From Aridibaculum aurantiacum (GTDB taxonomy: Bacteria; Bacteroidota; Bacteroidia; Chitinophagales; Chitinophagaceae), in NCBI RefSeq assembly GCF_017355875.1, contig NZ_JAFEWC010000004.1, positions 12,989 to 76,988 on the forward strand: a stretch of DNA of 64,000 nt, written 5' to 3'. The position numbers and the translations under genes are program-made. This document shows positions 16,908 to 31,213 of this stretch, in pieces; position 1 is the stretch's first letter, and every line of letters begins with the position of its first letter. Under the pieces are notes generated by a model, which made no database searches, was not told where the DNA came from, and saw only the letters and a list, made by a program, of their open reading frames with translations.

Positions 16908-18917
16908 TTATTCTTCAAATCCCTCCTTTTTTGAGAGTTGTAGTATTCTTATTCCATTTTTTGCCTGCTTTACGGACATGCCCTTTCCTCTGCTTTCAAT
17001 AATACCTAAATTGTAAGAAAGCTTTCTGTCGAACGGGGAAAAAAGATTGTTCTCCTTCGCCCATTTTGCCAATGCAAACCAAGTTTCAGCTTTCACAGTT
17101 GATGCTTCTTCAATCATTTTAATTTCCTGCTCTGTTAATGCCTCTGCCTGCATGCCATTACCACCATACAGAACCAGATGGTTTTTTAGCATTCCTGTGT
17201 CAAAATGCTTATCCCTTAACGTCAGCCAACATTCCTGTCTTTTACACCACTCGGTAATGTTCATACCAGACTTTGAGGGTGACATTATATGTTCCCAGAC
17301 TACATCAATGAGGCGGTTGATTATTGCACGTAAGTCGTCATTTAATTCCTGCTGTTGCCAAATGGTTTCCAGATCAAGCTTCTGCCCTGTTTTGAAGGAG
17401 AGAATAGCAATGGTGTAAGAAACAACATTGGCTTTATAGCCTCCTAGCTTTTTTGCCGTTATCATTTTATCAATCTCATGAAATAAAATAGCTTTGGCAA
17501 TCACGTGATGGTACTGCGTCTTGGAAATTTCCACGTTGTGATCCGTGTCCTTCACAAACAACAGGAAGTTTTTTTCTCCTCCTTTACTGGCATCATGAGG
17601 ACGTTGTCGCCAGCTCATCTCATATTTTGCCAAATCTGTTTTATTAAACTTTTGCTTCTTTGGATACTCTACATCGAAGCGCTTCTGATCCTTCTTGGAA
17701 GGTATTCTTGAACGTTCGTCTAAATACTGTCCTCTTGTCCTTTCATAATACCACTTGCTTATAGCTTTTCCTCCACCAGTTTCCGGAACCCACTCACTCC
17801 TCGACCATTGCTCTAGAGAAACGTGATACTGCGAATTTGAACTGAAGTCCGAGTCTTTGATAGCTGTCTGGCTGTTTGCGAACCTTGAAATGCTGGGAAC
17901 TACGTCATTTAAACTGTTACCAGGTTTAACGACAGATATCTTCATCGGCACGAAAGCCCTAGAAAGGTCAATTCCCTTTTCACCGGAGGTGTAATAGATG
18001 GAAGCCGTTGTCTGGCCACCATTCACAATCTGCAGATTCTCAATTCGGTTCAGATAAGGGATACCTTCTTCATATATCACGTCCACTTTTTCCGCGGTGG
18101 TGGAAATGCCATTGTTGTAGGCGAAGAACATATCTGGCTGGGTCCTGATGGTTTCTCGGATGCCGTTATTCACCTTTGCCTTGAACTGCAGAAAGGTCCT
18201 TACATTTTTTTCCAGAAGTCCCTGCTTATACTGGCCATATATGTCTGCGAGAATCAGAGCAGGGAGAATTGCAAGATATTCATCCACTTTATCGCTCACA
18301 TTCTCCATCTGAAGACACTTCAGTCTGTAATTATAATCCCTTTGAAAATCAATTTCAATCTTCTGTTTTCCTGCTTTAATTAAATATTGCTGGTATATCC
18401 GCTCGATATCCCACAGCTCATAATCCCAAATAATATCGTTTTCCTCTTTATCCTGTGGTACAATGTGTGGTGAGCATAGCCCATTGGTAAGGACAAAAAC
18501 ACGGACGTTTCTGGAATAAGCTTTGGTATGCTGTATGATATCAATAAAATCAGACAGCTGTTCGTCTGGCTGATCAACTTTATCTCCAATAGTTCCATTT
18601 CTAACTGCCAGAAAGAACTTTTCGGCTTTGCTGAAAGCGTCTAGCACGTCTTTGTCTGAGATCTTCTGAATTCTTGAATCTTCTTTACTTAACGTGACAA
18701 ACAGATCAATAGCCTCATTGTCATCGTCATAGTCCAAGGCGTTAATTTTCATGCCTCTCACTTTGAAACTGCATACTTGCGGTTCAAGAATTTCACCGCA
18801 ATCTTTTATGTATTCCAAGATATCAATTGTAATTGCATCTTCTAAAGAAAGACTGTCAGTATCGACACTAATCATTACATTTTCAAGAAAGTCAGCTGCA
18901 AATTCGTCAAGTGTCAC
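16908..18917 (-). CDS. AIPR-family (abortive infection phage resistance) protein
   Basis: 669 aa. It has an AIPR-like N-terminus (MTLDEFAADFLENVMISVDTDS…) and carries the VNGGQTTASIYY (NGxQT) motif remembered as diagnostic for AIPR. It lies 11 bp downstream of the DUF1998 gene. Confidence 0.5.
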   Translation of the reverse strand: MTLDEFAADFLENVMISVDTDSLSLEDAITIDILEYIKDCGEILEPQVCSFKVRGMKINALDYDDDNEAIDLFVTLSKEDSRIQKISDKDVLDAFSKAEKFFLAVRNGTIGDKVDQPDEQLSDFIDIIQHTKAYSRNVRVFVLTNGLCSPHIVPQDKEENDIIWDYELWDIERIYQQYLIKAGKQKIEIDFQRDYNYRLKCLQMENVSDKVDEYLAILPALILADIYGQYKQGLLEKNVRTFLQFKAKVNNGIRETIRTQPDMFFAYNNGISTTAEKVDVIYEEGIPYLNRIENLQIVNGGQTTASIYYTSGEKGIDLSRAFVPMKISVVKPGNSLNDVVPSISRFANSQTAIKDSDFSSNSQYHVSLEQWSRSEWVPETGGGKAISKWYYERTRGQYLDERSRIPSKKDQKRFDVEYPKKQKFNKTDLAKYEMSWRQRPHDASKGGEKNFLLFVKDTDHNVEISKTQYHHVIAKAILFHEIDKMITAKKLGGYKANVVSYTIAILSFKTGQKLDLETIWQQQELNDDLRAIINRLIDVVWEHIMSPSKSGMNITEWCKRQECWLTLRDKHFDTGMLKNHLVLYGGNGMQAEALTEQEIKMIEEASTVKAETWFALAKWAKENNLFSPFDRKLSYNLGIIESRGKGMSVKQAKNGIRILQLSKKEGFEE

Positions 18918-18928
18918 AATGTTTGATT

Positions 18929-20995
18929 TTATTGATTAAAAAGTCCAATTCGTGAATTATTAAGTGTTCCGATCACCGCTGCACGATCCAGGTATTTGTT
19001 CATTTTTTCGCAGCTTGTTTCGGGTAGCAGCACACAGGAATAGCAGGCTGCAAGGTTAAGCCCCATAAAGCCCTGCCCCTGTTCTGCTGATATGCAAAGC
19101 GGATCAGAGGAGCACCAGCGCGCTTTATCGACACCTTTGTTCATCACTGATGAAAGATAATCCGGCTGTCCTTTTTCAACCAATCCGCCTAGGGATCCCT
19201 CAGCGTCGGAAGTCGTGGTATAAATAAGGATACCGTTCATCTCTTCTTCAGTCCCGATTGAAGAGTTGCCACTACAGTAGATAATTTCTGCGAGGGATGA
19301 AAGACTGTATCCGCAGTCCTCTGCCAGCTCTTTTAGCAGTATATGGGAAAGTGTATGCAGGAATAAGTACCGTTTATTGATTAACTCATGATTCTGGTTG
19401 AAACTGAGGTTCGCCTGTTCTAAGTTGTGGTTTATCGTATCGAGACGTGCATTCGGATACTCATCTGCCCACGCATTGAGCTTTTTATTACTGAACTTAA
19501 GAAAAATTCCTTCTCCTTTCACTTCAACTGCGGGCAATTCCCTTGTATGCAAGGGGTCTCTGCGTGCATCCTGTATACGCTCAAATTCGTGTTTCTGCTT
19601 CGTATCTAAATTATCCGCAGCTTCTGCAAAAACTAGTTCTTCACCCATCAATGGTTTCACCCGCGTGAACCCCTTATAGACCTTCAGTGCGGAGAGTTTT
19701 TCAAGTAGTACTACTTCCTCCAACAGATCGGGCTGACCTGTGAGGCTGTTGTATTCATTACCATCAACTTTCTTCTTTTTGAACCATACTGTCTTATCCT
19801 TTATCACTGTCCCTGTAAAAGCGCTGAATTCCTGTTGACGAAGCAATACAGCTTTGTTGATAAAGCGCTCTTCGGGCTTTTCACCAAAATGATTCCGGAT
19901 AAAACCGATGACTGCTTCCTTGGTATAGCCAAGTTTCAGCAACTGGTGATTCGGATTGCTTTCGACAAGTCTGATCAGGAAATCGCGCCATTGCTCGTTT
20001 GTATAGTCCTGATATATATCCGGCATACTGTCCCTGAAAATTGTGACCGTTGAGTCCAGATTTTGCTGCACTTCCGGAGGGCATTGCTGCTCATAGGCTG
20101 ACTGTGGCAGGAGGATACCGCTGTAAATAATGGGGAAAATAATATTGCCGGCGCCCCTTTGCATTGTCCTGGGAAACTTGCGCTTTGCAGCCGGTGATAA
20201 ATCATCACCGTCCATGATGTTTCCCTGCCTTGGAACGTCACTGACGAGCTCTGTTACATAGCTCTCATTGTTATGCCATCCTTTCCATGGTTTTGGCAGG
20301 TAATTGTTTACATAATCCAGATAATTTCCTTCTGCATCTGTTTCAGTGAAAATTGACTGGTCAAATATCTGACCGAGATCTCTGCTGGCTAAAAAAGTAT
20401 TGCTTCCTCTCCGGTAACTCTCAATTGTAATATCGCTCAGACCTGCTGATCCTCCCTTTGATTTATAATAAAGCAGATGTCTCTGGCCCCTTTCTTTAGG
20501 ACAGCTTTTGTGAACAAACCAGTCCCAAGGAAAATCACCCAGAAAACCCTCTTCTGTCGCAATCACAAAGCGCATTGGCACCAGATTGGGGCCGATACCC
20601 GTCTGATTATTAGTGCAGGCATCACAAGTAAAAGCTCGCATCTTCTGATCGAAAGAGCCCCGTTCAATTATTGCCTGCCCTCTCGTCTTTGTAATAAAAT
20701 GAATCAGCCCACACTTTGGACAATACTGCGCTCCGGGAAACCGTATTCCATAGGCGGATAGATTATTAATGCCATCCTCCTGTGGGGGAACCACAAAATG
20801 ATCGACCTTAAATGCTTCTGCCAGGCGACTGTCTCTAATCACCTGTTTTTTATTCGGGTCTTCCTGATTTACATTTCCCCAGTCGCCGTAGCCATCATCA
20901 TGGCACAGCATGATCAGTGAAAGCTCCGGAAAATCAATCATTGAGCCGGACGGCCATGTATGTATAATTTGTGACTGTCTGATATCGTAACTCAT
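18929..20995 (-). CDS. DUF1998-domain protein (DrmB/MrfB-like) with an N-terminal zinc ribbon
   Basis: 688 aa. The C-terminal cysteine signature AACYSCVLLPETSCEKMNKYLDRAAV, preceded by TTTSDAEGSLGGLVE, is typical of DUF1998. A second Cys cluster is CPKCG…CDAC. The start lies 3 bp after the helicase stop. Confidence 0.65.
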   Translation of the reverse strand: MSYDIRQSQIIHTWPSGSMIDFPELSLIMLCHDDGYGDWGNVNQEDPNKKQVIRDSRLAEAFKVDHFVVPPQEDGINNLSAYGIRFPGAQYCPKCGLIHFITKTRGQAIIERGSFDQKMRAFTCDACTNNQTGIGPNLVPMRFVIATEEGFLGDFPWDWFVHKSCPKERGQRHLLYYKSKGGSAGLSDITIESYRRGSNTFLASRDLGQIFDQSIFTETDAEGNYLDYVNNYLPKPWKGWHNNESYVTELVSDVPRQGNIMDGDDLSPAAKRKFPRTMQRGAGNIIFPIIYSGILLPQSAYEQQCPPEVQQNLDSTVTIFRDSMPDIYQDYTNEQWRDFLIRLVESNPNHQLLKLGYTKEAVIGFIRNHFGEKPEERFINKAVLLRQQEFSAFTGTVIKDKTVWFKKKKVDGNEYNSLTGQPDLLEEVVLLEKLSALKVYKGFTRVKPLMGEELVFAEAADNLDTKQKHEFERIQDARRDPLHTRELPAVEVKGEGIFLKFSNKKLNAWADEYPNARLDTINHNLEQANLSFNQNHELINKRYLFLHTLSHILLKELAEDCGYSLSSLAEIIYCSGNSSIGTEEEMNGILIYTTTSDAEGSLGGLVEKGQPDYLSSVMNKGVDKARWCSSDPLCISAEQGQGFMGLNLAACYSCVLLPETSCEKMNKYLDRAAVIGTLNNSRIGLFNQ

Positions 20996-20998
20996 AAG

Positions 20999-23900
20999 TT
21001 AAATGCTTTTAATCCTTACTTTGGAAGAAGATTCGACATTTCTCAATGTCTGCATTGTCGGAATGTGGTCCTGCAGCAGGCTTTCAACAAATTGTGCCGG
21101 AGCATTGTAAACAGCATTCGGATTTCTGATTTTAGTTACAACCTGTTCTATGTTGGGGTCATAACGCATATAATCCGTATAGACTGCTAGCCTCCGGTCA
21201 CCATCGAGCATTGAGAGCCGTGTAGTGAACTCCTGCTGAATAGAATCAATTGTATCACATATCTCAGTTGCGTCAGCCGCTCCATAAATGGCAATTGCTT
21301 TGGCTTTGACATCCTGTATAACGCCGTCAACAAATGTCCTGTAAGCTGTATCTGCGGGACTGAATACACCGTGGCTTCCGGTAAGAAACAAACTGCGGGT
21401 CAGGGTAATCAGCACTGTAGGCAGGACCTTTTCGAGTGCCGGCCGGGAGAATGGTGTAACGGAGCTTGCTTCAACATGATAGTAATAAGCCTGATGGAAT
21501 GCCTTGAATTGTTCATAATGTGAACGGTCCCTGTTTTTAGTGGGTGCAAGAAAAGTGAAAACCACACCAGGGCCTTCCCTTCCTACCCTTGAGCTGGCCT
21601 GAATATATTCTGCAGTAGTTTTGGGCTGACCGTTTACAATCATGGTGTTCAGCCTGGGAATATCAACGCCCACTGAAATCATGTTTGTCGCCGGTGCAAT
21701 CTGCACCGGATCGGGATGTCCCCCCATAAGATTGTTTACAGCATTGATAAACGATTTATAATCCTTTTCACTGTCACCTGAAAAAGCAAGATCGATCTGA
21801 TCGAAAAAAGGCTTGTTTAAAAATCCTGACCAGACAGAACCTTTTGCTGTTTTAATATCTCCATTTGTCCGGATACCCGTTGCGAAAAGTTTCTGAACCA
21901 GCAAATTATTTTCATCAAGCCCGGCAGGAAGTGTTGTCTTTTCCAGTCTGTCAAGACCTTTGTTAATGTCATCTGCCGTCATGACACTGGACAATTCACA
22001 AAGGGCATTCTGGTTGAACGGTTTGAAAAACGTGCTGAAATGATTAGCCAGCATTTTCCTGTAAGCGACAATGTCATCGGTAAGAAAGGTCCTGAACTTT
22101 CCCAATTCTTTTAATGCATTGAAATACACAACCAGTGTGTAATACCGATCCAGCTCTCCATTTGCTGCGGGCAGTACAGGTATTCTTTCAAGCAGGACTG
22201 AGGCCAGCCGGATCAGGGCTGTGCTGGTAGTCACACCCGATGGCATGAATCCAACATAGAGCCTGTTCTTTGGATCGTCTACCTTGATTTTCTTTGCGTA
22301 AAACGAATCGTCTGCATCGGTAGCCGGAGGAGGAAACTGAAGAAAATGCTTCCTGCCGTACAAACGCCTGCATTGTTCTTCCGCATTCCGAACGGTTGCC
22401 GTAGCGCCAACGACTTTGCAGATATTTCCCTCAGCTTCCCGGCAAAGTCTGTCGATTACAATCTCATATACCCCATATATCGTTCCCAAGGCAGAACTGA
22501 TCAGATGTAGTTCATCTTGAATGATCAGTTCCGGGGAAGGATAGAGCCGTTTTACCTGATTATTGCTGAACTCTGTATTGAACAGATTGAAGGCATCACT
22601 CCTCCAAGCAAGCTGAACAAATTTATCGACAGTGGAGAACAGCAGTGACGGACGTTCCTGGTAAATTGTTTCATCCACTTCATAAACAGGAAATGTTTTA
22701 TCAGGGTTTTTCCGGAAGTCAGCAGCAGTCACATAGAAGGCACAACGGGTATTTGTGCAGGCCATGTGATAACGTCCTGTTTCACTCCCTCTGTTATTTA
22801 CCGTCCTGAAATAACCCCATCGTCCGATTACCTGATTGTTTTCAATTTCACGGACAAGACGGTTGCCGCAACACGGACAGGACAGCAGCGGAGGTGAACT
22901 TTTGTAAGTACTTGGTTGTCTGCCTCTGTTTACCTGCCTTATATAATCAGCATAGTCCCTCTGCTGATCCTCCTCATTGTTTGGTGTCATGGATCTACCC
23001 ATCCAAATACCGTTTGATATTCTGACTTTCCCATATGCAGCCGGTTCCATCCGCCGGATAAGATCACAGGAACAGATCAGAATTGTTGCCCGCTCAAATT
23101 GTTGTTTGTTAAGAAGTCTCAATGTATACCGCATGAGGACAGAGACACCTGCTCCTTGGTCAGGGTCATTATATGATTTTCTAGCTTTCAAACGCCTGAA
23201 GAAAATAGTGAATGCTGTAAGACCTAAATAAGCTTCAGTCTTACCACCGCCTGTGGGAAACCAGATAAGGTCGACAGTATCACGGTCCGGTGAGGACGGG
23301 TCTGTAATCCCTTGGACCTGGGAAAGTAAGAAGGCGAGCTGAAACGGGCGCCAGCGTGCTAGTGTCCCCGTTTTTTCATAGTTGATTAAATCGATATGGA
23401 GTTCTCCTTCTTGCCATATTTTTCCAGCACCGGCATCAAATGGAATTTTGGTGTAATCGGGCAGGCCGTCATCTGTACCTGCGTTATTTTTCTGTACGCG
23501 TCCTGCCACCCTTCTGTGTCTGCTGAAATCTGCCATTACCCGCTGCATAAACATAGCCCTGTTGGCATCTTCAAAGGCTTTCCGTGCTTCGCTGTCTGCA
23601 GCTAGCAACTCAATCCCTTTCTTCATCCTTTCATAAAGCTTCTCACATTTTTTAAGGTTTTTTACGGCCTGTTCTTTAAGTTTCGGTTCCAGCCCATTGT
23701 TCTTGATTTGCTCTCCCTGATCGACTATCCACTGTTTATATAAATCGATAAACACTTCCAGCTCACTTTTTACCGTTGTCCAGTCATATGACATTTCAAG
23801 CGCAGTTCCGCTCAGTCTCTTTATATACAAAATATTGCTCCCCTTGAATACGTCCGGATTCAGATCCACACCATTCACTTTTTCCTGTGGAAGTACCTGT

Positions 23901-24793
23901 GTAAACACCTTCTGAACCTGGTCGTTTTCTTCATCCCAGTCCACCGATATGCCGTGTCCTTGTGCATAAACTTTGTAATTTCGGTAAAGCAATTTGAGAT
24001 TAAGATCTTCTTCTGACAGAATATTTAAGTCGGTCCGGTCATCAAAAGCTTTGAAACCGTTTGTCGTTTGCACCGTTAGAGATGGCTGAAACAGACAATC
24101 GTCTGCACTTTTCTGGTGACCCGATGATTTTGCTTCCTTCTTATTGATCAGCGTGAAGGTTTTTATTTCGAGGGCTTCCTGACCATATTTATGCGGGTAG
24201 TTCCTTGTTGCAATCGTCAGAATTGCATTCTCATTAAGATTTACATTGATCAGATTTCCATTCTTTGAATAATTAAGGTCGCCAAAATCAAAGGTGTCAC
24301 CTTTAATTTTAAGAGTAAATTCGTGCGGAACATGTTTATATACATTTACGCTGACCATTGTTACTGCTTCCCCCTTTACAACTTCTTTTTCAGCTTTTTT
24401 CTTCACATATACAGCAAAGCGGATATTGATTTCAAGTGAAGCATTTTTTGCAGTAAGAACAGATATCCCTGCAGCAGACGGACGGAACTTAGTGGTCAGC
24501 TCCAGCTCTCCGCTTTTATCTGTAGTATCCGCCTCCTGAGATGCTCTTACTTTCTGTGTTGTTGACTTTTCTTCACCGGAAGTATTTTCGCCTGCATTTT
24601 CCTGCTGCATCTGTGCTCCTGTGCCCACACTGTTGTCGTCCTGCTCCTCGTATTCTTTGGTAAGTGGGAGTTGAGGAAACAATACGCCGACAGAATAGAA
24701 ATCAAGTGGGTTCTTCTCCAGCTGTTCGCCACTACCGTTTATTGGTCCGTGCAGAATTCTCGCAACTTCTGCAACAATAGTTTCTCTGAGCAT
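20999..24793 (-). CDS. SF2 DExH-box helicase with an inserted zinc ribbon (DrmA-like partner of DUF1998)
   Basis: 1264 aa. Motif I WFPTGGGKTEAYLGL, motif II IIQDELHLIS, motif III VGATATV, motif VI QASSRVGR. A CPCCGN…CTNTRC zinc ribbon sits between motifs Ia and II. A ~450-aa N-terminal domain has unknown function. A helicase immediately upstream of DUF1998 is the DrmA/DrmB (and MrfA/MrfB) arrangement. Confidence 0.6.
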   Translation of the reverse strand: MLRETIVAEVARILHGPINGSGEQLEKNPLDFYSVGVLFPQLPLTKEYEEQDDNSVGTGAQMQQENAGENTSGEEKSTTQKVRASQEADTTDKSGELELTTKFRPSAAGISVLTAKNASLEINIRFAVYVKKKAEKEVVKGEAVTMVSVNVYKHVPHEFTLKIKGDTFDFGDLNYSKNGNLINVNLNENAILTIATRNYPHKYGQEALEIKTFTLINKKEAKSSGHQKSADDCLFQPSLTVQTTNGFKAFDDRTDLNILSEEDLNLKLLYRNYKVYAQGHGISVDWDEENDQVQKVFTQVLPQEKVNGVDLNPDVFKGSNILYIKRLSGTALEMSYDWTTVKSELEVFIDLYKQWIVDQGEQIKNNGLEPKLKEQAVKNLKKCEKLYERMKKGIELLAADSEARKAFEDANRAMFMQRVMADFSRHRRVAGRVQKNNAGTDDGLPDYTKIPFDAGAGKIWQEGELHIDLINYEKTGTLARWRPFQLAFLLSQVQGITDPSSPDRDTVDLIWFPTGGGKTEAYLGLTAFTIFFRRLKARKSYNDPDQGAGVSVLMRYTLRLLNKQQFERATILICSCDLIRRMEPAAYGKVRISNGIWMGRSMTPNNEEDQQRDYADYIRQVNRGRQPSTYKSSPPLLSCPCCGNRLVREIENNQVIGRWGYFRTVNNRGSETGRYHMACTNTRCAFYVTAADFRKNPDKTFPVYEVDETIYQERPSLLFSTVDKFVQLAWRSDAFNLFNTEFSNNQVKRLYPSPELIIQDELHLISSALGTIYGVYEIVIDRLCREAEGNICKVVGATATVRNAEEQCRRLYGRKHFLQFPPPATDADDSFYAKKIKVDDPKNRLYVGFMPSGVTTSTALIRLASVLLERIPVLPAANGELDRYYTLVVYFNALKELGKFRTFLTDDIVAYRKMLANHFSTFFKPFNQNALCELSSVMTADDINKGLDRLEKTTLPAGLDENNLLVQKLFATGIRTNGDIKTAKGSVWSGFLNKPFFDQIDLAFSGDSEKDYKSFINAVNNLMGGHPDPVQIAPATNMISVGVDIPRLNTMIVNGQPKTTAEYIQASSRVGREGPGVVFTFLAPTKNRDRSHYEQFKAFHQAYYYHVEASSVTPFSRPALEKVLPTVLITLTRSLFLTGSHGVFSPADTAYRTFVDGVIQDVKAKAIAIYGAADATEICDTIDSIQQEFTTRLSMLDGDRRLAVYTDYMRYDPNIEQVVTKIRNPNAVYNAPAQFVESLLQDHIPTMQTLRNVESSSKVRIKSI

Positions 24794-24802
24794 AAAATTG
24801 AT

Positions 24803-26545
24803 TTAGTTTGAATTGGCGATACGATTCGCGATAACAGAATGATACCGGCTGTTGATAAAAAAAATGCTTTGCGCTGTAGCCCGTGTATTGGCAATATAGA
24901 TCAGTGACATCTGCTTTTTGTCATTCGGATTATAATCTTCCGGACTGCAGATAAGGATAAATCTGTTTTCCAGTCCCTTGTAGGCATGAATGGTTGACAC
25001 AATTACTTTACCGGAAACCGGAAAAGCACTTTCAACATACCGGCCCGGATTGGATTGTACAAGAGATATAAGCTGCTCTCTTTCCGAACAAAGAATTGTT
25101 ACATCTTTTCGTTCAACTCCTTCAGCTTCCAGTTTTATGATTGTCTCACTGACCCTGTTTTTCAGATCAGTATCAGAAGAATAAAACTTTATTTCACTGT
25201 TCCAGGTTTGATCCGTGCGAAGACAGGGCATTTCAGGGAAACCGGTTTGCAGTGAGGCCCTTTTGATTGTGGAAAGCGTATTCCTGCAGTTCAATTGAAG
25301 CAGACTGACAAAGCAGGGATACACATCACGCAAGTACTCAAAATATTCATCTGCATCATTGTTGTAAATGTTCTGGTACTCTTTGTCCATAAAAATTGCC
25401 CAGTTACCTGATTCTAGGCCGCCTTTCAACAGAAGTCCCAGTGCTTCGAAATGATATTCATTCAATATATCCTGCCCCTCATCTATGATCAGGTAATCGA
25501 ACGACCGCTTTTTAGTTTCTGCCAAGTTCCGAACAAACTGAAGCGGCAAATCACGGGACCAGTATTCCTCATTGCTGCTGATGTCACCCGGCGGGTTTTG
25601 AAGAAAATCCCTGTCCCTGTATAAACTATGAAGGTGACAGATAAAATAATTTCCTTCAGTCACAAGGTTACGGCCTTGCTGAGTAAGGTATTCCGCCAGA
25701 TTTTTATTAAAACAGATTAACAGGGTGCGCCTGCCATCTGTAAGTGCCCTTTTGAAAAGCTCCAGCGCGAGGAGTGTTTTGCCGGTTCCTGGGCCTCCCA
25801 TAATCACGCCTCCCTTTCCCGGATTGTATTTCAGGTTATCCAGAATATACATCTGCATTCCTGTGAGGCGCTGTGCTTCCTCGCTTCCTTTTTTCAAAAG
25901 ATCAGAAACGGGCAACCGGAAATGAAGATCCTGCCGGAAGTAACGGCTGACGGTACTTAGTTCTTTCTGACTTAGACCTGATCTTCCAGCATATTGCGGA
26001 TGAGCGGACCAGTATCGTTTAACTTTCTGAAGAAAACCGATTAGACCCCCTTTCTTATGATCACTGTAATCATAAATCAATTCCGGATCAAATTCCATTT
26101 GCCCCATTGTTGATTTTCTGAACTCATCGGGTTTAATGGTGTCAGGGAACAAGACACCGATACCATATACCAGCCGTCCCGGGATGGATTTGCCCCGGAA
26201 CAAATCCGGCAGCAGTGTGTCTCTCGTATAAAATAAAGTGTTGTACGCCTGCCTGAAAGGATCACCCGGCTCTGTACCTCCCTGAACATACCACTGATTT
26301 TTGAGCGAGTCGAATTTTACTGATCCGCCTTTTACTTCCAGAAAAAGGATGCATTCGCTGTCCATGTACACAAAGTCTATCTCTCCTTTGATCTTCTTAT
26401 CCCCTGTTTTTGCCATGTTCAGAGAATGAAAAAGATATTTTTCGGTGTTATTAAAATAAGTGCTGTTTGCGGCCACCACATAAATCTCTTTTTCAGCCTG
26501 TGAGTTGAATTCATATCCGTTCAATGAAGAGGGACTAAGGGGCAT
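24803..26545 (-). CDS. NERD-domain nuclease fused to a UvrD-like SF1 helicase/ATPase (Nhi-like architecture)
   Basis: 580 aa. The N-terminal ~110 aa have a NERD-like (nuclease-related domain) pattern (EIDFVYMDSECILFLEVKGG). Walker A is GGPGTGKTLLALE and Walker B is LIIDEGQD. A UvrD C-terminal motif V-like TIHAYKGLENRFILI is present. Confidence 0.6.
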   Translation of the reverse strand: MPLSPSSLNGYEFNSQAEKEIYVVAANSTYFNNTEKYLFHSLNMAKTGDKKIKGEIDFVYMDSECILFLEVKGGSVKFDSLKNQWYVQGGTEPGDPFRQAYNTLFYTRDTLLPDLFRGKSIPGRLVYGIGVLFPDTIKPDEFRKSTMGQMEFDPELIYDYSDHKKGGLIGFLQKVKRYWSAHPQYAGRSGLSQKELSTVSRYFRQDLHFRLPVSDLLKKGSEEAQRLTGMQMYILDNLKYNPGKGGVIMGGPGTGKTLLALELFKRALTDGRRTLLICFNKNLAEYLTQQGRNLVTEGNYFICHLHSLYRDRDFLQNPPGDISSNEEYWSRDLPLQFVRNLAETKKRSFDYLIIDEGQDILNEYHFEALGLLLKGGLESGNWAIFMDKEYQNIYNNDADEYFEYLRDVYPCFVSLLQLNCRNTLSTIKRASLQTGFPEMPCLRTDQTWNSEIKFYSSDTDLKNRVSETIIKLEAEGVERKDVTILCSEREQLISLVQSNPGRYVESAFPVSGKVIVSTIHAYKGLENRFILICSPEDYNPNDKKQMSLIYIANTRATAQSIFFINSRYHSVIANRIANSN

Positions 26546-26547
26546 GA

Positions 26548-29139
26548 TTATATTTTATAAATTGTCGAAATTCTTTTTATCTCAATATGATTGATAAAAT
26601 CATTTAACAGGTTGTCCGTATAAACCTCATCTTCTTGGAACCTGATACCATAAAGCCGTGCGATAAGTCTACGGATTGCGGTTCTTACAAAGCCTGCCTG
26701 AATGGATTTAAGATCAGCGTTGTGTTTATTGAAAGAACCGATTTCATCATTGTTGATAATGCCAAGTTTACCCAGTGCATGCAGCAAACTCACAAAATTA
26801 TCCGGGCGTTGCGTGTCACCATCGATCCAGTTTTTCACTGTTGCAGGACCAATTTTAAATCCGTTGTCCAGCAGTTTTTTGCAGAAGAAATTCAGGTCCA
26901 TCCGGCACCGGACGATATGATTTTTCAGCAGGAGCCTCCATTTTTTATCCATCTCAATTGCCAGAGAAAACGCAGGGTCTTTTCTTAAGGCCTGCTCCAG
27001 CAGGTCTTTGACCTGAAGACCACGTCTGGCTACAATAATCTGATCACCCGCGCTCAAGGTCGTTACGGACCTAAAAGACGCTTCATAATCAAAATCTTCC
27101 TTATCATCTTCATACACATAGAAATGTCTTGACTCCGGCACCTGACTAAGTGTCCTGTCATCAAACAAAAGAATGTATTTTTCAGATAGTTCTTTTGCAT
27201 TAGAACCTTCATATTGCTGAACAATCTTTTGAACCACTTCCTGCAGGTCAATGTCCTGAACTTCTGATACATTTTGGACAATTTCCGGTTCTAACTTCGG
27301 CACATTAAACTCAACCTCAATGAGACCAGAGGCTATATTATCCGGAGACGAGGATGGCGGCTGGAGATTAAGCAAAGTATACTTCACACGGTCACAACCT
27401 ACTTCTTTTTGTATGTCCTGATATTTACCAAATAGGTTTTTTGCAAAATAGCAGCTTCTTTCATTTAATATAAATAACTGATTTGCTGCTAACACATTGC
27501 CAATTGCCGCACCAATTGTTTTTCTATCACTGGTCAAATAAAATATATATGAAGAAGGAACTTCATTTTTCTGATTAAATGTGTGGAATTCTTTTTTATG
27601 GATATGTAGGATTTTGATGTTAGGGAGGGTCTCTCCCAAAGTATTTACAAGCCACTTCGCATCTTCAATGCTGCTGTTGTCCGATACTATTTCAATTGTT
27701 CCTTGTAAAGTTCTGCTGTTTAGCTCCTGTAAAATAATTGGTAGTTTGAAGTTGACAAAACGAGAATTATTCAAAATGTATTGTTCCAAATACCATTTTA
27801 TGTCTTCTATTAGACCATAATCTTGTCCGCCAGAAAACCAGTTCTGCCGAAGTTCCTCTAAACTGGATAAAAAATCGGTTGAAAATTCCTGCAGAGCTTT
27901 AGGATCGAAAAAAGAATTTAGTTTAGTACGTAGATTGTAAAGACAACTGAGGGGTCGTATTATTTCACCATTACAAAAGCTTTCTTGAGCTATGTTTTTC
28001 AATCTTAAAATCAGGTCCCAAAGTTTCTTATTTAAATTTTCAAACTCAGGATCTCCTGTAGATGTGACAATTACTTTTGGTGGATTAGCTACTTTCTTTT
28101 CATCAAGATCTAATTGCTCCAATGGCTGCAAGAGCCATGGATTGTATTCTATTTTTAATTCATTAAAATAAGTATGAATATCCAGGTTGCTGATCCGGGA
28201 AATTAAGTACATATCCTTGATCTGTTTGTCCCGCACCATTTGAAGATATCCTTCATTTAGGTTTTGTAGTTCTTGCAAAAGGCTTTGTGACCTTTCCCAA
28301 CTGTATATAAAAGAATCGAAATCATCTAAGATTATAGTTTTGACATGATTAAATCGACCTTTACCTGCCTCTATGATTGATTTATAAGCGCGAAACGAAT
28401 CCTGACGTGCAACAATCAGAGAAACTGGAGCATTCTCAGTATTAGGCCCAGAAAGACGCTGAAACCGTAACTCTGCATCGTTGGCAGGAAAAATGACTTT
28501 TTGAATGTTTAAATGTCTTCTTAGATCAGTCCCTGCAACTTTTACGTTTTTAAGAAGACTCTCGAATTTGCTTATATTGGTAAACAAAACAACTGCCTCA
28601 AAATTATCTTGGGGAAGTATTGGAAGAGTAAAAATATTTTGTTCAACTGCTTGATCTAAATCTGCAAATTTCTCAATCTTATCTCTTAAAAAATTTGAAT
28701 TAGACAACCAGTTTAGTTTGTATGTTTCGTCAAATGGAATTGATTTATCACCACCAGTCCCTGCTTGAATAATTAAACTGCGATCTATAAAATTAACTTG
28801 CCTTACATCATATATAGTTCCATTTAAAACGACTTGTTTACAGTTTGGTCCGTATGCTAAATTTCCAAAGTCATGCCTTTTCATTGAAAGGGACAATGCT
28901 TTCCTGTACTGACCCATTATTACAAAGAATGGGACTAAATTTATCGTAGTGGTACTGTTTGACGGATAAAGGCCTATAATTCGGTGGTTCCGATCGACAG
29001 TATTTTGATGGATTAAAAATGGAAGAAGTTGGCTTGCAGTAAAGTCAGACACAATGCAACCATTGATTTCATATTGAAGATTTCTTAAATCTGGGCATTC
29101 GCATGATATGGAATGCTGTATATAAGCCTTGTTAAGCAT
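26548..29139 (-). CDS. Hypothetical 863-aa protein (possible DrmE-like component), strongly AT-rich gene
   Basis: Long uninterrupted ORF, first gene of the tightly spaced block (2-bp gap to the next gene). No recognisable catalytic motif by eye. Composition is visibly AT-richer than the flanking housekeeping genes. Confidence 0.6.
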   Translation of the reverse strand: MLNKAYIQHSISCECPDLRNLQYEINGCIVSDFTASQLLPFLIHQNTVDRNHRIIGLYPSNSTTTINLVPFFVIMGQYRKALSLSMKRHDFGNLAYGPNCKQVVLNGTIYDVRQVNFIDRSLIIQAGTGGDKSIPFDETYKLNWLSNSNFLRDKIEKFADLDQAVEQNIFTLPILPQDNFEAVVLFTNISKFESLLKNVKVAGTDLRRHLNIQKVIFPANDAELRFQRLSGPNTENAPVSLIVARQDSFRAYKSIIEAGKGRFNHVKTIILDDFDSFIYSWERSQSLLQELQNLNEGYLQMVRDKQIKDMYLISRISNLDIHTYFNELKIEYNPWLLQPLEQLDLDEKKVANPPKVIVTSTGDPEFENLNKKLWDLILRLKNIAQESFCNGEIIRPLSCLYNLRTKLNSFFDPKALQEFSTDFLSSLEELRQNWFSGGQDYGLIEDIKWYLEQYILNNSRFVNFKLPIILQELNSRTLQGTIEIVSDNSSIEDAKWLVNTLGETLPNIKILHIHKKEFHTFNQKNEVPSSYIFYLTSDRKTIGAAIGNVLAANQLFILNERSCYFAKNLFGKYQDIQKEVGCDRVKYTLLNLQPPSSSPDNIASGLIEVEFNVPKLEPEIVQNVSEVQDIDLQEVVQKIVQQYEGSNAKELSEKYILLFDDRTLSQVPESRHFYVYEDDKEDFDYEASFRSVTTLSAGDQIIVARRGLQVKDLLEQALRKDPAFSLAIEMDKKWRLLLKNHIVRCRMDLNFFCKKLLDNGFKIGPATVKNWIDGDTQRPDNFVSLLHALGKLGIINNDEIGSFNKHNADLKSIQAGFVRTAIRRLIARLYGIRFQEDEVYTDNLLNDFINHIEIKRISTIYKI

Positions 29140-29250
29140 GTCAGGTTAATATTAAAACCGGACAACATTGGGGGATGTTAGTCTTGGTTAGCTAAGCAGG
29201 TTAATTGCAAGTTGAATGTACAACTTCATTAATTAACTACTACAGTTAAC

Positions 29251-30516
29251 CTACAAAATCTTCATTATTGATTTCGCAATTGCATAAGCCATTAATGGCG
29301 GCACTGCGTTTCCTATCTGCTTGAATGCGGCAGTTCTATTAAAAGATAGTTTTCTTTTAATATCACTTGGCTTCACTCCTTCAAAATAATAATCATCCGG
29401 GAACGATTGAAGCCTGGCTGCTTCTCTAACTGTCAATGAACGGATTTGCTTGATATCAGGATGAATATAATAATGACCGTCTTTCGCTATATGGGCAACA
29501 ACTGTCTGTGAATAAGGCAGGTCATCGGCAACTACTTTGAAACGATCAAAAAAAGAAGTCCTATTGTTATGGGTTTTAAGTTCATCAGGTAGATCATTAT
29601 AATTTAATCTCTCCCCGCTCCTTTTCCACTTCTTTATAGCGATACGATATATTTTTTTGTCTTGTTGGTTATGTGGACGGGAGATATGTTGGGTCAGTAC
29701 GTCTATGCCATTTCTGATGCAATTGTTTATTAAATATTGATTTGTATCACCTGCGTAAGCCTGATATTTATCTATTCCAGCTCCTGCCAATAAAACTGGT
29801 AAATCAACTAATACATCAGCTACGGTGGATTTGGTTTGGTGTTTTACTTCTTCGAGATTTGGTATCTCAAGATTTAAATCTTTCTTCCATCCAATAATAA
29901 TTACTCTCCTTCTTCTTTGTAATACACCAAAATTGTTTGCTTCAACAGTAAACAGTTTCATCTTATAACCTCGATCTAAAAACAGCTTCTCCATCTGTTC
30001 AAGATAAAATCCTCTTTTGGCTGACTTCAACCCAAGAACATTTTCAAATACAAACATTTTAGGTTTATAAAAAGCTAGATAGTTGGCGTATTCTACAAAT
30101 AAATAGTTTCGAGGATCACCCTCCATCTTTGTTGCAGATCTGGATCTACCAGCCAGTGAGTAAGCCTGACATGGAGGTCCACCTATAATTAAATCTACTT
30201 TTTGCTTGCCGAGGAGGCTCTTTATTGTTTTATGAATGGTCTCATTATGCTCAGGCCCAACTGGCAGATTAATTATTGAAGACTTTACTTCATCAGGGAT
30301 TTCTTTATACAATTTTTCTCGACTTATCTCTCCCCTTAAATAGGATACATAGATGCTGTACTGATTGTTTGCCTTCAAGTAATGGTAGGCAGTTCTGGTT
30401 CTTAAGGAATAGCAAGCAGCTTTATCCATTTCAACGTGTGCAATAGGGGTAAATCCTGCCCGGATGAAGCCCTCGGATAATCCACCGGCACCTGCAAATA
30501 AGTCTATGAAGTTCAT
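29251..30516 (-). CDS. dcm: DNA (cytosine-5)-methyltransferase
   Basis: 421 aa. Motif I FAGAGG, motif IV GGPPCQAYSLAGR, motif VI FVFENVLGL, motif X QIGNAVPP. Confidence 0.9.
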   Translation of the reverse strand: MNFIDLFAGAGGLSEGFIRAGFTPIAHVEMDKAACYSLRTRTAYHYLKANNQYSIYVSYLRGEISREKLYKEIPDEVKSSIINLPVGPEHNETIHKTIKSLLGKQKVDLIIGGPPCQAYSLAGRSRSATKMEGDPRNYLFVEYANYLAFYKPKMFVFENVLGLKSAKRGFYLEQMEKLFLDRGYKMKLFTVEANNFGVLQRRRRVIIIGWKKDLNLEIPNLEEVKHQTKSTVADVLVDLPVLLAGAGIDKYQAYAGDTNQYLINNCIRNGIDVLTQHISRPHNQQDKKIYRIAIKKWKRSGERLNYNDLPDELKTHNNRTSFFDRFKVVADDLPYSQTVVAHIAKDGHYYIHPDIKQIRSLTVREAARLQSFPDDYYFEGVKPSDIKRKLSFNRTAAFKQIGNAVPPLMAYAIAKSIMKIL

Positions 30517-30941
30517 TTCCTGGAAGATACAATTTTGCCAGGCAATTTAGCAAGAGTTTTTTGAAGTTTCCCTGCTTTTGTCTCACACTCCCAGACTGTG
30601 AGTACTTTCCATCCAGCATCTTGAAGAGCTTTTTTGTTTCTCTTGTCTCTTCTGACGGTATCCGAAAACTTCTTTTTCCAATTTGTACTAGATTCTTGTG
30701 ATGGAGTCGTGCAATACCTGCAGCCTGGATGCCGATGAAAATAACACCCATGTATGTCAACTACCGTTTTATACTTCGGCAAAACAATATCAGGCTTACC
30801 CGGCAGATCCTTGACATGAAGCCGGTAACGGAAGCCGTGCTTGTGCAGAAAGCGACGCACCAGCATCTCGGGCTTTGTATCCTTGCCCCTGATTGCAGCC
30901 ATATTTTTACTGCGTGTTGCTTTATCATGCACATCTGCCAT
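30513..30941 (-). CDS. vsr: Very-short-patch-repair endonuclease
   Basis: Vsr signature MADVHDKATRSKNMAAIRGKDTKPE…VDIHGCYFHRHPGCRY…VWECE. The stop overlaps the dcm start in ATGA. The supplied ORF extends to 31049 (178 aa), but the conserved Vsr N-terminus begins at the Met at 30941. Confidence 0.8.
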   Translation of the reverse strand: MADVHDKATRSKNMAAIRGKDTKPEMLVRRFLHKHGFRYRLHVKDLPGKPDIVLPKYKTVVDIHGCYFHRHPGCRYCTTPSQESSTNWKKKFSDTVRRDKRNKKALQDAGWKVLTVWECETKAGKLQKTLAKLPGKIVSSRK

Positions 30942-31175
30942 ATACCAAAGCTCCAGTTCAATCATCTCGCCAAAGTCTCTGCCAGCACCTTTAACACCGT
31001 ACAAGTTGCGACCCCGCCTTCGCCAATGCTTCGGTCGGGGCAGGCGCAATCGCGGCCAAATAATATTATAGGGCTGGTCCCATAATAATTCCTTCCCAAG
31101 TAAGCGGCGGCGTGGTAACCATGTGATGGATGATTGGTGGCGAGATCCAACACCTATTCACGCAGCACCCACCCA

Positions 31176-31213
31176 TACAAAAAACAAAAGGAGCAGTTGC
31201 CTGCTCCTTTCCT
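31176..31213 (-). terminator. Rho-independent terminator of the flotillin operon
   Basis: GGAGCAG-gcaact-CTGCTCC hairpin followed on the minus strand by TTTTGTTTTTTG, directly 3' of the flotillin stop at 31214. Confidence 0.6.

What the first reader, a model, noticed from the sequence alone, without database searches (positions are those of the whole stretch)
24803..26545. NERD nuclease domain fused to UvrD-like SF1 helicase inside the DISARM-like operon (possible DrmC substitute, or an Nhi-like single-protein module)
The N-terminus has NERD-like features (EIDFVYMDSECILFLEVKGG). Walker A is GGPGTGKT, Walker B is IDEGQD, and a UvrD motif V-like TIHAYKGLENRF is present. Nuclease plus SF1 helicase in one polypeptide is the architecture reported for Nhi-type nuclease-helicase immunity proteins. 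Here it is co-operonic, with a 2-bp and a 9-bp gap, with the orphan 863-aa gene and the DrmA-like gene. Given the missing PLD nuclease, the NERD domain is a plausible replacement effector.
Basis: inference. Interest (0 to 1): 0.6.

Follow-up and report, generated by a model that had tools for sequence, protein, structure and literature searches.

The report
NERD nuclease-helicase built into DISARM
This gene encodes a DNA-cutting domain fused to a DNA-unwinding motor, and it travels with the DrmA/DrmB core of the DISARM anti-phage system across many bacterial phyla, always where the usual DISARM nuclease DrmC is missing, so it is a good candidate for that system's long-sought DNA-destroying component.

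Summary
Window 24803-26545 (minus strand) is a 580-aa ORF. It has an N-terminal NERD / PD-(D/E)xK nuclease domain with an intact E18/E55/D57/E70-x-K72 site. It also has a compact UvrD-like SF1 helicase core with all motifs intact.

The gene sits 2 bp after a divergent DrmE and 9 bp before DrmA, in one seven-gene operon: Vsr, DrmMII, DrmE-like, NERD-helicase, DrmA, DrmB, AIPR. No PLD (DrmC) gene is in the 64-kb window.

- In 15 of 21 homologue loci with full flanks (22 of 39 overall), DrmA/DrmB lie within 10 kb. These loci span about eight phyla and three conserved operon layouts.
- In one layout the NERD-helicase occupies the usual DrmC slot after DrmB.
- None of the fetched loci holds an HKD/PLD motif, except the canonical control.
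- NERD-helicase and DrmA distances correlate at r = 0.95, about as well as DrmA with DrmB (0.96).

It is not a member of the Nhi family. Some relatives stand alone or pair with other partners, so autonomy is not excluded.

Best reading (about 0.6): a modular nuclease-helicase effector integrated into a DrmC-less DISARM variant. I found no description of this variant in the searchable literature.

The parts
24803..26545 (-). NERD-SF1 helicase gene (580 aa), the finding itself
   Evidence: ORF list and translation. Pfam NERD, AAA_19 and UvrD_C_2. PADLOC RTasNERD-Hel E 8.8e-33. AF2 pLDDT 86.
25901..26545 (-). N-terminal NERD / PD-(D/E)xK nuclease domain (residues 1-215)
26324..26383 (-). Nuclease active-site segment EIDFVYMDSECILFLEVKGG (E55, D57, E70, K72)
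   Evidence: Coordinates verified. E18, E55, D57, E70, K72 and Q99 are invariant in 52-54 of 54 homologues; the only gaps are contig-truncated copies.
24806..25900 (-). Compact SF1 (UvrD-like / Schlafen-group-3-like) helicase core (residues 216-580)
   Evidence: Foldseek against PDB: SLFN11 E 1e-19, UvrD 6.5e-13, Upf1 1e-12. Pfam AAA_19, SLFN-g3_helicase, UvrD_C_2.
25775..25798 (-). Walker A GGPGTGKT (residues 250-257)
   Evidence: G253, K256 and T257 are invariant.
25469..25486 (-). Walker B / motif II IDEGQD (residues 354-359)
   Evidence: D355, E356 and Q358 are invariant.
24959..24994 (-). Motif V TIHAYKGLENRF (residues 518-529). Motif IV NCRNT lies at 25277-25291 and motif VI IANTRAT at 24875-24895.
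   Evidence: R421, K523, G524 and R555 are invariant or nearly so.
26548..29139 (-). Divergent DrmE (863 aa), 2 bp upstream of the NERD-helicase
   Evidence: NCBIfam DrmE_fam 1.7e-9, below the curated cutoff. Pfam DrmE_C 5.8e-4. Same-position orthologues hit DrmE_C above threshold.
20999..24793 (-). DrmA helicase (1264 aa), starts 9 bp after the NERD-helicase stop
   Evidence: PADLOC DrmA 6e-192. NCBIfam DISARM_DrmAS 6e-252.
18929..20995 (-). DrmB (DUF1998/MZB, 688 aa)
   Evidence: PADLOC DrmB 6e-61. NCBIfam DrmB_fam 346 bits, above the cutoff of 240. Pfam MZB.
29251..30516 (-). DrmMII C5-cytosine methyltransferase (421 aa)
   Evidence: PADLOC DrmMII 7.8e-169. Pfam DNA_methylase 2.9e-62.
30513..31049 (-). 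Vsr very-short-patch endonuclease; its end overlaps the DrmMII start by 4 bp; first gene of the operon
   Evidence: Pfam Vsr 4e-30. TIGR00632 129 bits.
16908..18917 (-). AIPR / MzaE-like protein (669 aa), 11 bp after DrmB; last gene of the co-directional block, possibly accessory
   Evidence: Pfam AIPR 2.6e-96. PADLOC MzaE 2e-77. Recurs near DrmAB plus NERD-helicase in L010, L027 and L040.
31186..31211 (-). Strong terminator-like hairpin (11 pairs plus T-run) between the flotillin gene and Vsr; marks the upstream boundary of the operon

Best explanation
The gene encodes an active PD-(D/E)xK (NERD) nuclease fused to a minimal UvrD-like SF1 helicase. It is an integral, co-inherited component of a DrmC-less variant of the DISARM anti-phage system. 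Here that variant is a class-2-like operon: Vsr, DrmMII, DrmE, NERD-helicase, DrmA, DrmB, (AIPR).

Proposed working:
1. DrmMII marks host DNA by C5-methylation, and Vsr repairs the resulting T:G mismatches. This follows from established knowledge of these families.
2. DrmAB(E) loads on unmethylated invader DNA ends or ssDNA. This is known for Serratia DrmAB (PMC9142583) and inferred here.
3. The NERD-helicase, recruited or licensed by DrmAB/DrmE, translocates on the invader DNA using ATP and cuts it. It thereby supplies the nuclease activity that PLD-type DrmC was assumed to supply in canonical DISARM.

Shown here: domain identity, intact catalytic residues, operon structure, recurrent and phylogenetically congruent linkage with DrmAB, and absence of PLD genes.

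Inferred: physical or functional coupling to DrmAB, DNA as the substrate, and the order of events.
For: Architecture and intact sites.

Single operon: gaps of -4, 111, 2, 9, 3 and 11 bp, a terminator only upstream, and no strong internal terminator.

Recurrent linkage. The search was seeded only on NERD-helicase motifs, so it is unbiased towards DrmAB.
- 15 of 21 loci with at least 8 kb on both sides, and 22 of 39 overall, carry DrmA/DrmB within 10 kb.
- The phyla include Bacteroidota, Bacillota, Actinomycetota, Chloroflexota, Planctomycetota, Alpha- and Gammaproteobacteria, Desulfobacterota and Deinococcota.

Three conserved layouts:
- Type A: DrmE-like, NERDhel, DrmA, DrmB.
- Type B: SF2 helicase, UvrD-like, DrmA, DrmB, NERDhel. 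Here it occupies the canonical DrmC position.
- Type C: DrmA, DrmB, UvrD-like, unknown ~530 aa, NERDhel.

All nine checked relatives at 31% identity or more share the Type A layout.

Phylogeny:
- An NJ tree puts nearly all DrmAB-linked copies in one clade, and its subclades match the operon types.
- Mirror-tree correlations are r = 0.95 with DrmA and 0.90 with DrmB. The known complex partners DrmA-DrmB give 0.96. Mantel p <= 5e-4.

No PLD. None of the 85 fetched loci, nor the window, holds an HKD motif, while the canonical Microvirga DrmC control is detected.

Plasmids. 7 of 12 NERD-helicase plasmids have it next to DrmA. None of the 25 DrmC plasmids is among them.

Literature. DrmC is dispensable, does not co-purify with DrmAB and is often missing, so the effector nuclease of DISARM is called a mystery (PMC9142583; 10.1101/2021.12.28.474362).
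Against: - No experiment and no interaction prediction links the protein to DrmAB. Co-inheritance and congruent trees would also arise if two independent systems were transferred as one block.
- A 59%-identical relative of a DISARM-linked copy (L005) sits among housekeeping genes. Gut Clostridia carry many stand-alone copies.
- Other family members pair with UG34 reverse transcriptases (PMC9226505), sacsin-HATPase/NOV_C giants, or a fused YprA-like helicase. The module can therefore evidently work in other contexts.
- Class-2-like operons with neither DrmC nor the NERD-helicase exist, so it is not an obligatory replacement.
- The plasmid exclusivity alone (0 overlap) is not statistically strong.
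Confidence: 0.6

Rival explanations
1. An autonomous single-protein nuclease-helicase defence that works like Nhi or Hna. It would sense and degrade phage replication intermediates by itself. It would be merely embedded in, co-regulated with and co-transferred with DISARM, perhaps because the two are synergistic.
For: - Stand-alone relatives exist: L005 among housekeeping genes, 59% identical to DISARM-linked L007; gut Clostridia P0093 in varying contexts; 6 of 21 fully flanked loci without DrmAB.
- The family also occurs with unrelated partners.
- Defence genes are commonly embedded in DISARM in the same orientation (10.1101/2024.01.29.577857).
- Single-protein nuclease-helicases such as Nhi and Hna do defend alone (PMC10732053).
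Against: - The linkage is specific to DrmAB. None of the fetched loci whose neighbours were annotated showed it next to BREX or type I RM genes; most non-DrmAB neighbours were not annotated.
- It is retained through three different operon rearrangements and about eight phyla.
- Its tree mirrors DrmA as well as DrmB does.
- The linkage coincides with complete absence of DrmC.
- It matched no PADLOC 'embedded candidate' (PDC) family.
Confidence: 0.25
2. An integrated component with an upstream role rather than an effector role. The NERD-helicase would nick or unwind invader DNA to create the ssDNA or 5'-overhang substrate that activates DrmAB. Alternatively it would act as a second sensor, with DrmAB blocking replication by itself.
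For: - DrmAB is activated by 5'-overhang ssDNA and may defend by blocking replication without a nuclease (PMC9142583).
- In Type A operons the gene lies upstream of DrmA, next to DrmE.
- Types B and C carry further UvrD-like helicases, which suggests multi-helicase DNA processing.
Against: - Nothing in the sequence separates a sensor or processor role from an effector role.
- In Type B the gene sits in the DrmC slot.
- An invariant nuclease site is what one expects of an effector.
Confidence: 0.1
3. A housekeeping DNA-repair or recombination helicase-nuclease that is unrelated to defence and lies by chance next to DISARM genes.
For: UvrD-like motifs and a PD-(D/E)xK nuclease also occur in repair enzymes such as AddAB.
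Against: - The gene is patchily distributed and sits in a low-GC island between ligA/DUF2461 and flotillin.
- It is recurrently linked to DrmAB, C5 methylases and Vsr.
- Its best HMM is a defence-associated family.
- No solved-structure chain is related by sequence at E <= 0.001.
Confidence: 0.03

Closest known systems
DISARM class 2 (DrmE, DrmA, DrmB, DrmC, DrmMII; Ofir et al. 2018, as summarised in 10.1101/2021.12.28.474362 and PMC9252829)
   Same: DrmA, DrmB, a C5 methylase DrmMII and a (divergent) DrmE lie in one co-directional operon.
   Different: There is no PLD nuclease DrmC anywhere in the window. An extra NERD-SF1 helicase is inserted between DrmE and DrmA, and Vsr and AIPR genes are attached. 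PADLOC's type II DISARM definition requires DrmC and would not be satisfied.
PADLOC RTasNERD-Hel: 'cluster 485', a NERD plus helicase protein found next to UG34 defence reverse transcriptases (Mestre et al. 2022, PMC9226505)
   Same: This is the best full-length HMM match (E 8.8e-33, residues 14-562 against profile 14-509 of 519), with the same two-domain architecture.
   Different: No reverse transcriptase is present in the operon. The partner here is DrmAB/DrmE.
Nhi (nuclease-helicase immunity, Staphylococcus epidermidis) and AbiO
   Same: A nuclease and an SF1 helicase sit in one polypeptide, and the role is defence. Nhi degrades phage DNA after sensing replication complexes or SSB (PMC10732053).
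   Different: The Nhi and AbiO HMMs match only residues 227-290, around the P-loop (E 1.6e-7). The nuclease domain is not matched. Nhi is a stand-alone gene, whereas this clade is mostly operonic with DrmAB.
Human Schlafen group III proteins (SLFN11/SLFN14)
   Different: Sequence identity is only 13-16% and TM-scores are low (0.41-0.46). This is a eukaryotic tRNA/ssDNA-directed protein with no operon partners. It is a resemblance, not membership.
Can2/Card1 and McrC-type PD-(D/E)xK nuclease domains
   Different: There is no CARF domain or McrB partner. Identity is 8-16%.
TALON and ARMADA (YprA-family systems, 10.1101/2025.09.15.676423)
   Same: A YprA-family helicase is combined with a NERD-type nuclease (TALON) or with a UvrD/GajB-like helicase fused to a nuclease-type domain (ArmD in ARMADA II).
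   Different: TALON has a fused ARMADA-like YprA helicase plus TPR-CSD and TBP genes and is confined mainly to Chloroflexota. Here the helicase is a split DISARM-type DrmA/DrmB with DrmE and DrmMII. ArmD carries a RelE-like RNase domain, not NERD.

Membership tests
DISARM (core definition) | DrmA helicase (Helicase_C, YprA-like) | tested here: met
   PADLOC DrmA 6e-192. NCBIfam DISARM_DrmAS 839 bits, E 6e-252, slightly under the equivalog cutoff of 950.
DISARM (core definition) | DrmB, a DUF1998/MZB protein encoded separately just after DrmA | tested here: met
   NCBIfam DrmB_fam 346 bits, above the cutoff of 240. Pfam MZB. A 3-bp gap after DrmA.
DISARM (core definition) | DrmC, a PLD (HKD) nuclease | tested here: not met
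   There is no PLD Pfam or PADLOC hit among the operon genes or the ten flanking ORFs scanned across 7.9-40.2 kb. tblastn with Microvirga DrmC finds nothing in the window at E <= 10. A six-frame HKD regex finds nothing, while the positive control is found.
DISARM class 2 | DrmMII C5-cytosine methyltransferase | tested here: met
   PADLOC DrmMII 7.8e-169, full length.
DISARM class 2 | DrmE | tested here: inconclusive
   The window protein scores below the curated cutoffs: NCBIfam DrmE_fam 36.6 bits against 80, E 1.7e-9; Pfam DrmE_C 20 bits against 27; no PADLOC hit. Same-position orthologues in L040, L008, L070 and L084 pass DrmE_C.
NERD (Pfam PF08378, PD-(D/E)xK superfamily) | HMM match above the gathering threshold | tested here: met
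   25.0 bits against 22.1, residues 32-111. Homologues reach 49.5-49.7 bits.
NERD (Pfam PF08378, PD-(D/E)xK superfamily) | Catalytic D ... (D/E)xK signature and restriction-endonuclease fold | tested here: met
NERD (Pfam PF08378, PD-(D/E)xK superfamily) | Nuclease activity | not testable with these tools
   Requires biochemistry.
SF1 UvrD-like helicases | Q-motif and motifs I, II, IV, V and VI; two RecA-like domains | tested here: met
   TGMQ, GGPGTGKT, DEGQD, NCRNT, TIHAYKGLE and IANTRAT are invariant or nearly so. Foldseek hits UvrD, Rep, PcrA, Upf1 and SLFN11. The large 1B/2B insertions of UvrD are absent, since the core is only about 365 aa.
Nhi | Full-length similarity to the Nhi model | tested here: not met
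   PADLOC Nhi matches only residues 227-290 of the protein (profile 183-247 of 470), E 1.6e-7.
Nhi | Acts as a stand-alone single gene | tested here: not met
   In this clade 15 of 21 fully flanked loci are operonic with DrmAB. All nine close relatives are. Function alone was not tested.
UG34-associated NERD-helicase (PADLOC RTasNERD-Hel) | HMM match | tested here: met
   E 8.8e-33, end to end.
UG34-associated NERD-helicase (PADLOC RTasNERD-Hel) | Adjacent UG34 reverse transcriptase | tested here: not met
   No RT domain occurs in any operon or flanking ORF.
Gabija GajB | GajB-type UvrD helicase with an adjacent GajA OLD nuclease | tested here: not met
   There are only partial C-terminal GajB hits (E 7.8e-8, residues 504-578) and no GajA/OLD gene.

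The most novel reading that the evidence does not exclude
DrmA/DrmB plus a NERD-SF1 helicase, without any PLD nuclease, would be a distinct and ancient third branch of DISARM that spans many phyla. Three sub-architectures were seen here. In this branch the NERD-helicase would be the dedicated, DrmAB-licensed, processive DNA-degrading effector. This would answer, for that branch, the open question of which nuclease executes DISARM immunity. It would also suggest that canonical DISARM borrows an equivalent activity in trans.
Probability: 0.4. Interest if true: 0.75.

Novelty: new variant of a known kind. Interest (0 to 1): 0.62.

Why it matters
DISARM is a widespread anti-phage system whose killing step is unknown. 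Its presumed nuclease DrmC is dispensable, does not co-purify with DrmAB and is often absent (PMC9142583; 10.1101/2021.12.28.474362).

This gene is a catalytically intact nuclease-helicase. It has been co-inherited with DrmAB through several operon rearrangements and across about eight phyla, and it occurs only where DrmC is missing. That makes it a concrete, testable candidate effector.

It also shows that current detection rules miss or mislabel a recurrent DISARM variant. PADLOC type II DISARM, for example, requires DrmC. Finally, the same NERD-helicase module partners with UG34 reverse transcriptases, sacsin-HATPase/NOV_C proteins and fused YprA helicases. It therefore looks like a portable effector shared between otherwise unrelated sensors.

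Tried and rejected
- Sequence search against PDB chains: only P-loop noise, E >= 0.0035.
- Nhi, AbiO, GajB and mad8 membership: only local P-loop or C-terminal matches. Rejected.
- My first strict HKD regex missed the positive control and was replaced by a relaxed one.
- An earlier simple H.K....D regex on neighbouring ORFs gave only chance hits, none followed by GSxN.
This was compensated with exact-protein look-ups.
- Ofir et al. 2018 could not be retrieved. The DISARM definitions were taken from later papers that cite it.
- The supplements of the YprA preprint contain no mention of NERD, UvrD or DISARM-like classes.
- The sigma-70 promoter scan was uninformative: 33 found against 33.4 expected. 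This consensus is also not appropriate for Bacteroidota.
- PADLOC and Pfam gave no annotation for the ~530-aa Type C partner (F4) or the 607-aa L020 protein.
- I considered that the large ORFs upstream of non-DrmAB copies might all be YprA-like. Only L047 is; L037 and L038 (and, by BLAST clustering with L038, L041) are sacsin-HATPase/NOV_C proteins and L062 is AddA-like.
Full report
**1. What is in the sequence**

Window 24803-26545 (minus strand) is an ATG-started ORF of 580 aa. A 100% identical protein from Aridibaculum aurantiacum (Bacteroidota) identifies the source organism.

- EIDFVYMDSECILFLEVKGG, residues 55-74.
- GGPGTGKT, residues 250-257.
- IDEGQD, residues 354-359.
- TIHAYKGLENRF, residues 518-529.
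- In addition: a Q-motif (TGMQ, 228-231), motif IV (NCRNT, 419-423) and motif VI (IANTRAT, 551-557).

The stop codon of the upstream 863-aa gene is 2 bp from the ATG. The DrmA ATG is 9 bp after this gene's stop.

**2. Domain identity**

- Pfam gives NERD (25.0 bits, gathering cutoff 22.1, residues 32-111), AAA_19, SLFN-g3_helicase, ResIII and UvrD_C_2 (514-561).
- PADLOC's best model is RTasNERD-Hel, matched end to end (E 8.8e-33). Nhi, AbiO and GajB match only short P-loop or C-terminal pieces.
- No solved structure is related by sequence at E <= 0.001.
- An AlphaFold2 model built on 20 homologues has mean pLDDT 86. By Foldseek it resembles human SLFN11/SLFN14 (E 1e-19 to 1e-13), UvrD, Rep, PcrA, Upf1 and nsp13. 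This makes it an SF1 helicase with a small core.
- In an alignment of 54 homologues from all contexts, the following are invariant: E18, E55, D57, E70, K72, Q99, G253, K256, D355, E356, Q358 and R421. Q231, T257, K523, G524 and R555 are nearly so. The only gaps are contig-truncated copies.

Both activities therefore appear to be under selection everywhere.

**3. The operon**

Seven co-directional genes lie between a strong terminator-like hairpin (31211-31186) and the convergent DUF2461 gene:
- Vsr (30513-31049).
- DrmMII C5 methylase (29251-30516; PADLOC 7.8e-169).
- The 863-aa gene (26548-29139).
- The NERD-helicase (24803-26545).
- DrmA (20999-24793; PADLOC 6e-192).
- DrmB (18929-20995; NCBIfam 346 bits, above the cutoff of 240).
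- An AIPR/MzaE-like protein (16908-18917).

The 863-aa 'orphan' is a divergent DrmE. NCBIfam DrmE_fam gives E 1.7e-9 over residues 182-782, and Pfam DrmE_C gives 5.8e-4. Both are sub-threshold. Proteins in the same position in relatives pass DrmE_C.

The flanks are housekeeping genes: ligA, DUF2461, flotillin and asd. GC falls to 0.35-0.39 over the DrmE/methylase part, against about 0.45 elsewhere. This looks like a 14-kb acquired island.

No PLD/DrmC gene exists in the window:
- No Pfam or PADLOC hit.
- No tblastn hit with a bona fide DrmC.
- No HKD motif in six frames, while the control is found.

**4. Does it travel with DrmAB?**

A pattern scan of one genome per GTDB species, seeded only on NERD-helicase motifs, returned 69 loci.

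tblastn and my own ORF calling and clustering show DrmA and/or DrmB within 10 kb in:
- 22 of 39 loci with a near-full-length match.
- 15 of 21 loci with at least 8 kb on both sides.

These come from Bacteroidota, Bacillota, Actinomycetota, Chloroflexota, Planctomycetota, Desulfobacterota, and Alpha- and Gammaproteobacteria. Annotated plasmids add Deinococcota.

Three layouts recur:
- Type A: [Vsr/C5-MTase], DrmE-like, NERDhel, DrmA, DrmB. Seen in the window, L001-3, L008, L015 and L040, and in truncated form in L011 and L056.
- Type B: a ~1080-aa SF2 helicase, a ~600-aa UvrD-like helicase, DrmA, DrmB, NERDhel. Seen in L006, L007, L009, L029, L030, L036 and L058. Here the gene occupies the slot that DrmC has in canonical DISARM.
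- Type C: DrmA, DrmB, a ~390-aa UvrD-like helicase without NERD, an unannotatable ~530-aa protein, NERDhel. Seen in thirteen loci.

These layouts were annotated. Exact-protein look-ups of closer relatives all show Type A: Pedobacter agri at 51% identity, and P0029, P0053, P0055 and P0065.

In the plasmid collection:
- 12 plasmids carry a homologue, and 7 of those have it beside DrmA. Examples are Rhodococcus opacus pROB02 and Deinococcus gobiensis P4.
- 25 plasmids carry DrmC, and none of them is among the 12.

Across all 85 fetched loci, the only HKD motif is the Microvirga DrmC control.

**5. Co-evolution**

An NJ tree of 54 full-length homologues puts nearly all DrmAB-linked copies in one large clade. 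Its subclades correspond to operon types A, B and C.

Pairwise distance matrices from 19 loci correlate as follows (Mantel p <= 5e-4):
- NERD-helicase with DrmA: r = 0.95.
- NERD-helicase with DrmB: r = 0.90.
- DrmA with DrmB, the known complex partners: r = 0.96.

This shows long-term joint inheritance. It does not prove physical interaction.

**6. Evidence pointing the other way**

- L005 is 59% identical to DISARM-linked L007, yet it lies between glutamate dehydrogenase, SLT and FliK genes.
- Gut Clostridia carry many 553-560-aa copies in varying contexts without DrmAB.
- A sister clade is paired with 1435-1644-aa proteins; the two scanned (L037, L038) are sacsin-HATPase/NOV_C, and L041 clusters with L038 by BLAST.
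- L047 has a fused 1955-aa YprA-like helicase upstream.
- The PADLOC model that matches best was built from NERD-helicases next to UG34 reverse transcriptases, 7 of 17 (PMC9226505).
- DrmE-DrmA-DrmB operons with neither DrmC nor the NERD-helicase exist: L. plantarum pMK02 and Haliscomenobacter.

The module is therefore portable and possibly capable of autonomy. It is not an obligatory replacement for DrmC.

**7. Most likely working (confidence about 0.6)**

This is a DrmC-less DISARM variant in which the NERD-helicase is the nuclease-helicase effector.
1. DrmMII marks self DNA, and Vsr repairs deamination damage at 5mC sites. This is established knowledge of these families.
2. DrmAB, probably with DrmE, engages unmethylated invader DNA ends or ssDNA. 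This is shown for Serratia DrmAB (PMC9142583) and inferred here.
3. The NERD-helicase then translocates on and cleaves the DNA. This step is inferred.

Rivals:
- An autonomous Nhi/Hna-like single-protein defence, embedded and co-transferred (0.25).
- An integrated but upstream DNA-processing or sensing role (0.1).
- A housekeeping repair role (0.03).

**8. Comparison with what is known**

The operon meets the DrmA, DrmB and DrmMII criteria of class 2 DISARM and, weakly, the DrmE criterion. It fails the DrmC criterion, which is part of the published core triplet and of PADLOC's type II definition.

The protein is a member of the NERD family and of the SF1 UvrD-like helicases. It belongs to the same HMM family as the UG34-associated NERD-helicase but lacks the reverse transcriptase partner. 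It is not a member of Nhi, AbiO or GajB.

Full-text searches combining DISARM, DrmA, DrmB, DrmE, DUF1998 and NERD returned no description of a NERD-helicase as a DISARM component. The YprA-family survey mentions NERD only for the rare TALON system. It refers to 'many uncharacterized DISARM-like classes' without detail. The library is incomplete, so prior description elsewhere cannot be excluded.

**9. Verdict**

This is a new variant of a known kind.

The family is moderately large: 445 clusters at 50% identity with E <= 1e-30, and 2557 with E <= 1e-10.

Interest is 0.62. Effector swapping in defence systems is not surprising in itself. What raises the score is the breadth and congruence of the linkage, together with the unresolved question of DISARM's nuclease. 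Together they make this a directly testable lead.

Noticed in passing
window 16908-18917 (-): An AIPR / MzaE-like (AbiU-like) gene follows DrmB after 11 bp as the last gene of the operon. AIPR homologues also lie beside DrmAB plus NERD-helicase in L010 and L027 (Actinomycetota). In L040 (Lachnospiraceae) one lies between the methylase and DrmE. It may be a second accessory or effector module of this DISARM variant.
   Followed up: partly
L024:7134-9949 (and L012, L013, L016, L017, L022, L025, L026, L034, L039, L043, L046, L051): Type C operons insert two further conserved genes between DrmB and the NERD-helicase. One is a ~390-aa UvrD-like helicase lacking the NERD domain. The other is a ~530-aa protein (my family F4) with no Pfam or PADLOC hit at all.
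   Followed up: partly
L029:116-5112 (and L006, L007, L009, L030, L036, L058): Type B operons start with a ~1080-aa SF2 helicase (ResIII/Helicase_C; weak PbeA/DpdF/type IV REase similarity) and a ~600-aa UvrD/GajB-like helicase ahead of DrmA-DrmB-NERDhel. L029 also has a 1067-aa UvrD plus HD-domain protein downstream. That makes four or five helicases in one cluster.
   Followed up: partly
L037:2461-8495, L038:268-6874, L041:4917-11560: A sister clade of NERD-helicases is always preceded by a 1435-1644-aa protein. L037 and L038 carry a sacsin-type HATPase domain and a C-terminal NOV_C (DUF3883) domain; L041 clusters with L038 by BLAST (F29) but was not itself scanned. This is a possible separate two-gene defence system. 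A small NOV_C protein also sits between Dcm and DrmE in L082.
   Followed up: partly
L047:3939-11530: A 1955-aa fused YprA-like helicase (DEAD, Helicase_C, MZB) lies directly upstream of a NERD-helicase in a Planctomycetaceae genome. The YprA/DUF1998 and NERD-helicase partnership therefore extends beyond split DrmA/DrmB.
   Followed up: no
window 26001-30000: GC content falls to 0.35-0.39 over the DrmE-like and methylase genes, against about 0.45 for the rest of the window. This is consistent with recent horizontal acquisition of at least the 5' half of the island. The island sits between ligA/DUF2461 and a flotillin gene.
   Followed up: partly
window 30513-30516 and 31186-31211: The end of the Vsr gene overlaps the DrmMII start by 4 bp, which suggests translational coupling. 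A strong 11-bp-stem terminator lies between the flotillin gene and Vsr and defines the operon start.
   Followed up: yes
L080 (L. plantarum pMK02) and L081 (Haliscomenobacter pHALHY02): These plasmid-borne class-2-like operons (Dcm, ~800-aa hypothetical, DrmA, DUF1998) have neither DrmC nor a NERD-helicase. This shows that a nuclease-less DISARM core exists.
   Followed up: partly
L070:11754-15576 vs L071:11754-15575: In one Pedobacter agri assembly DrmA is split into 886-aa and 414-aa ORFs. In another assembly of the same locus it is an intact 1273-aa gene. This is either a frameshift or an assembly error in a DISARM helicase.
   Followed up: no
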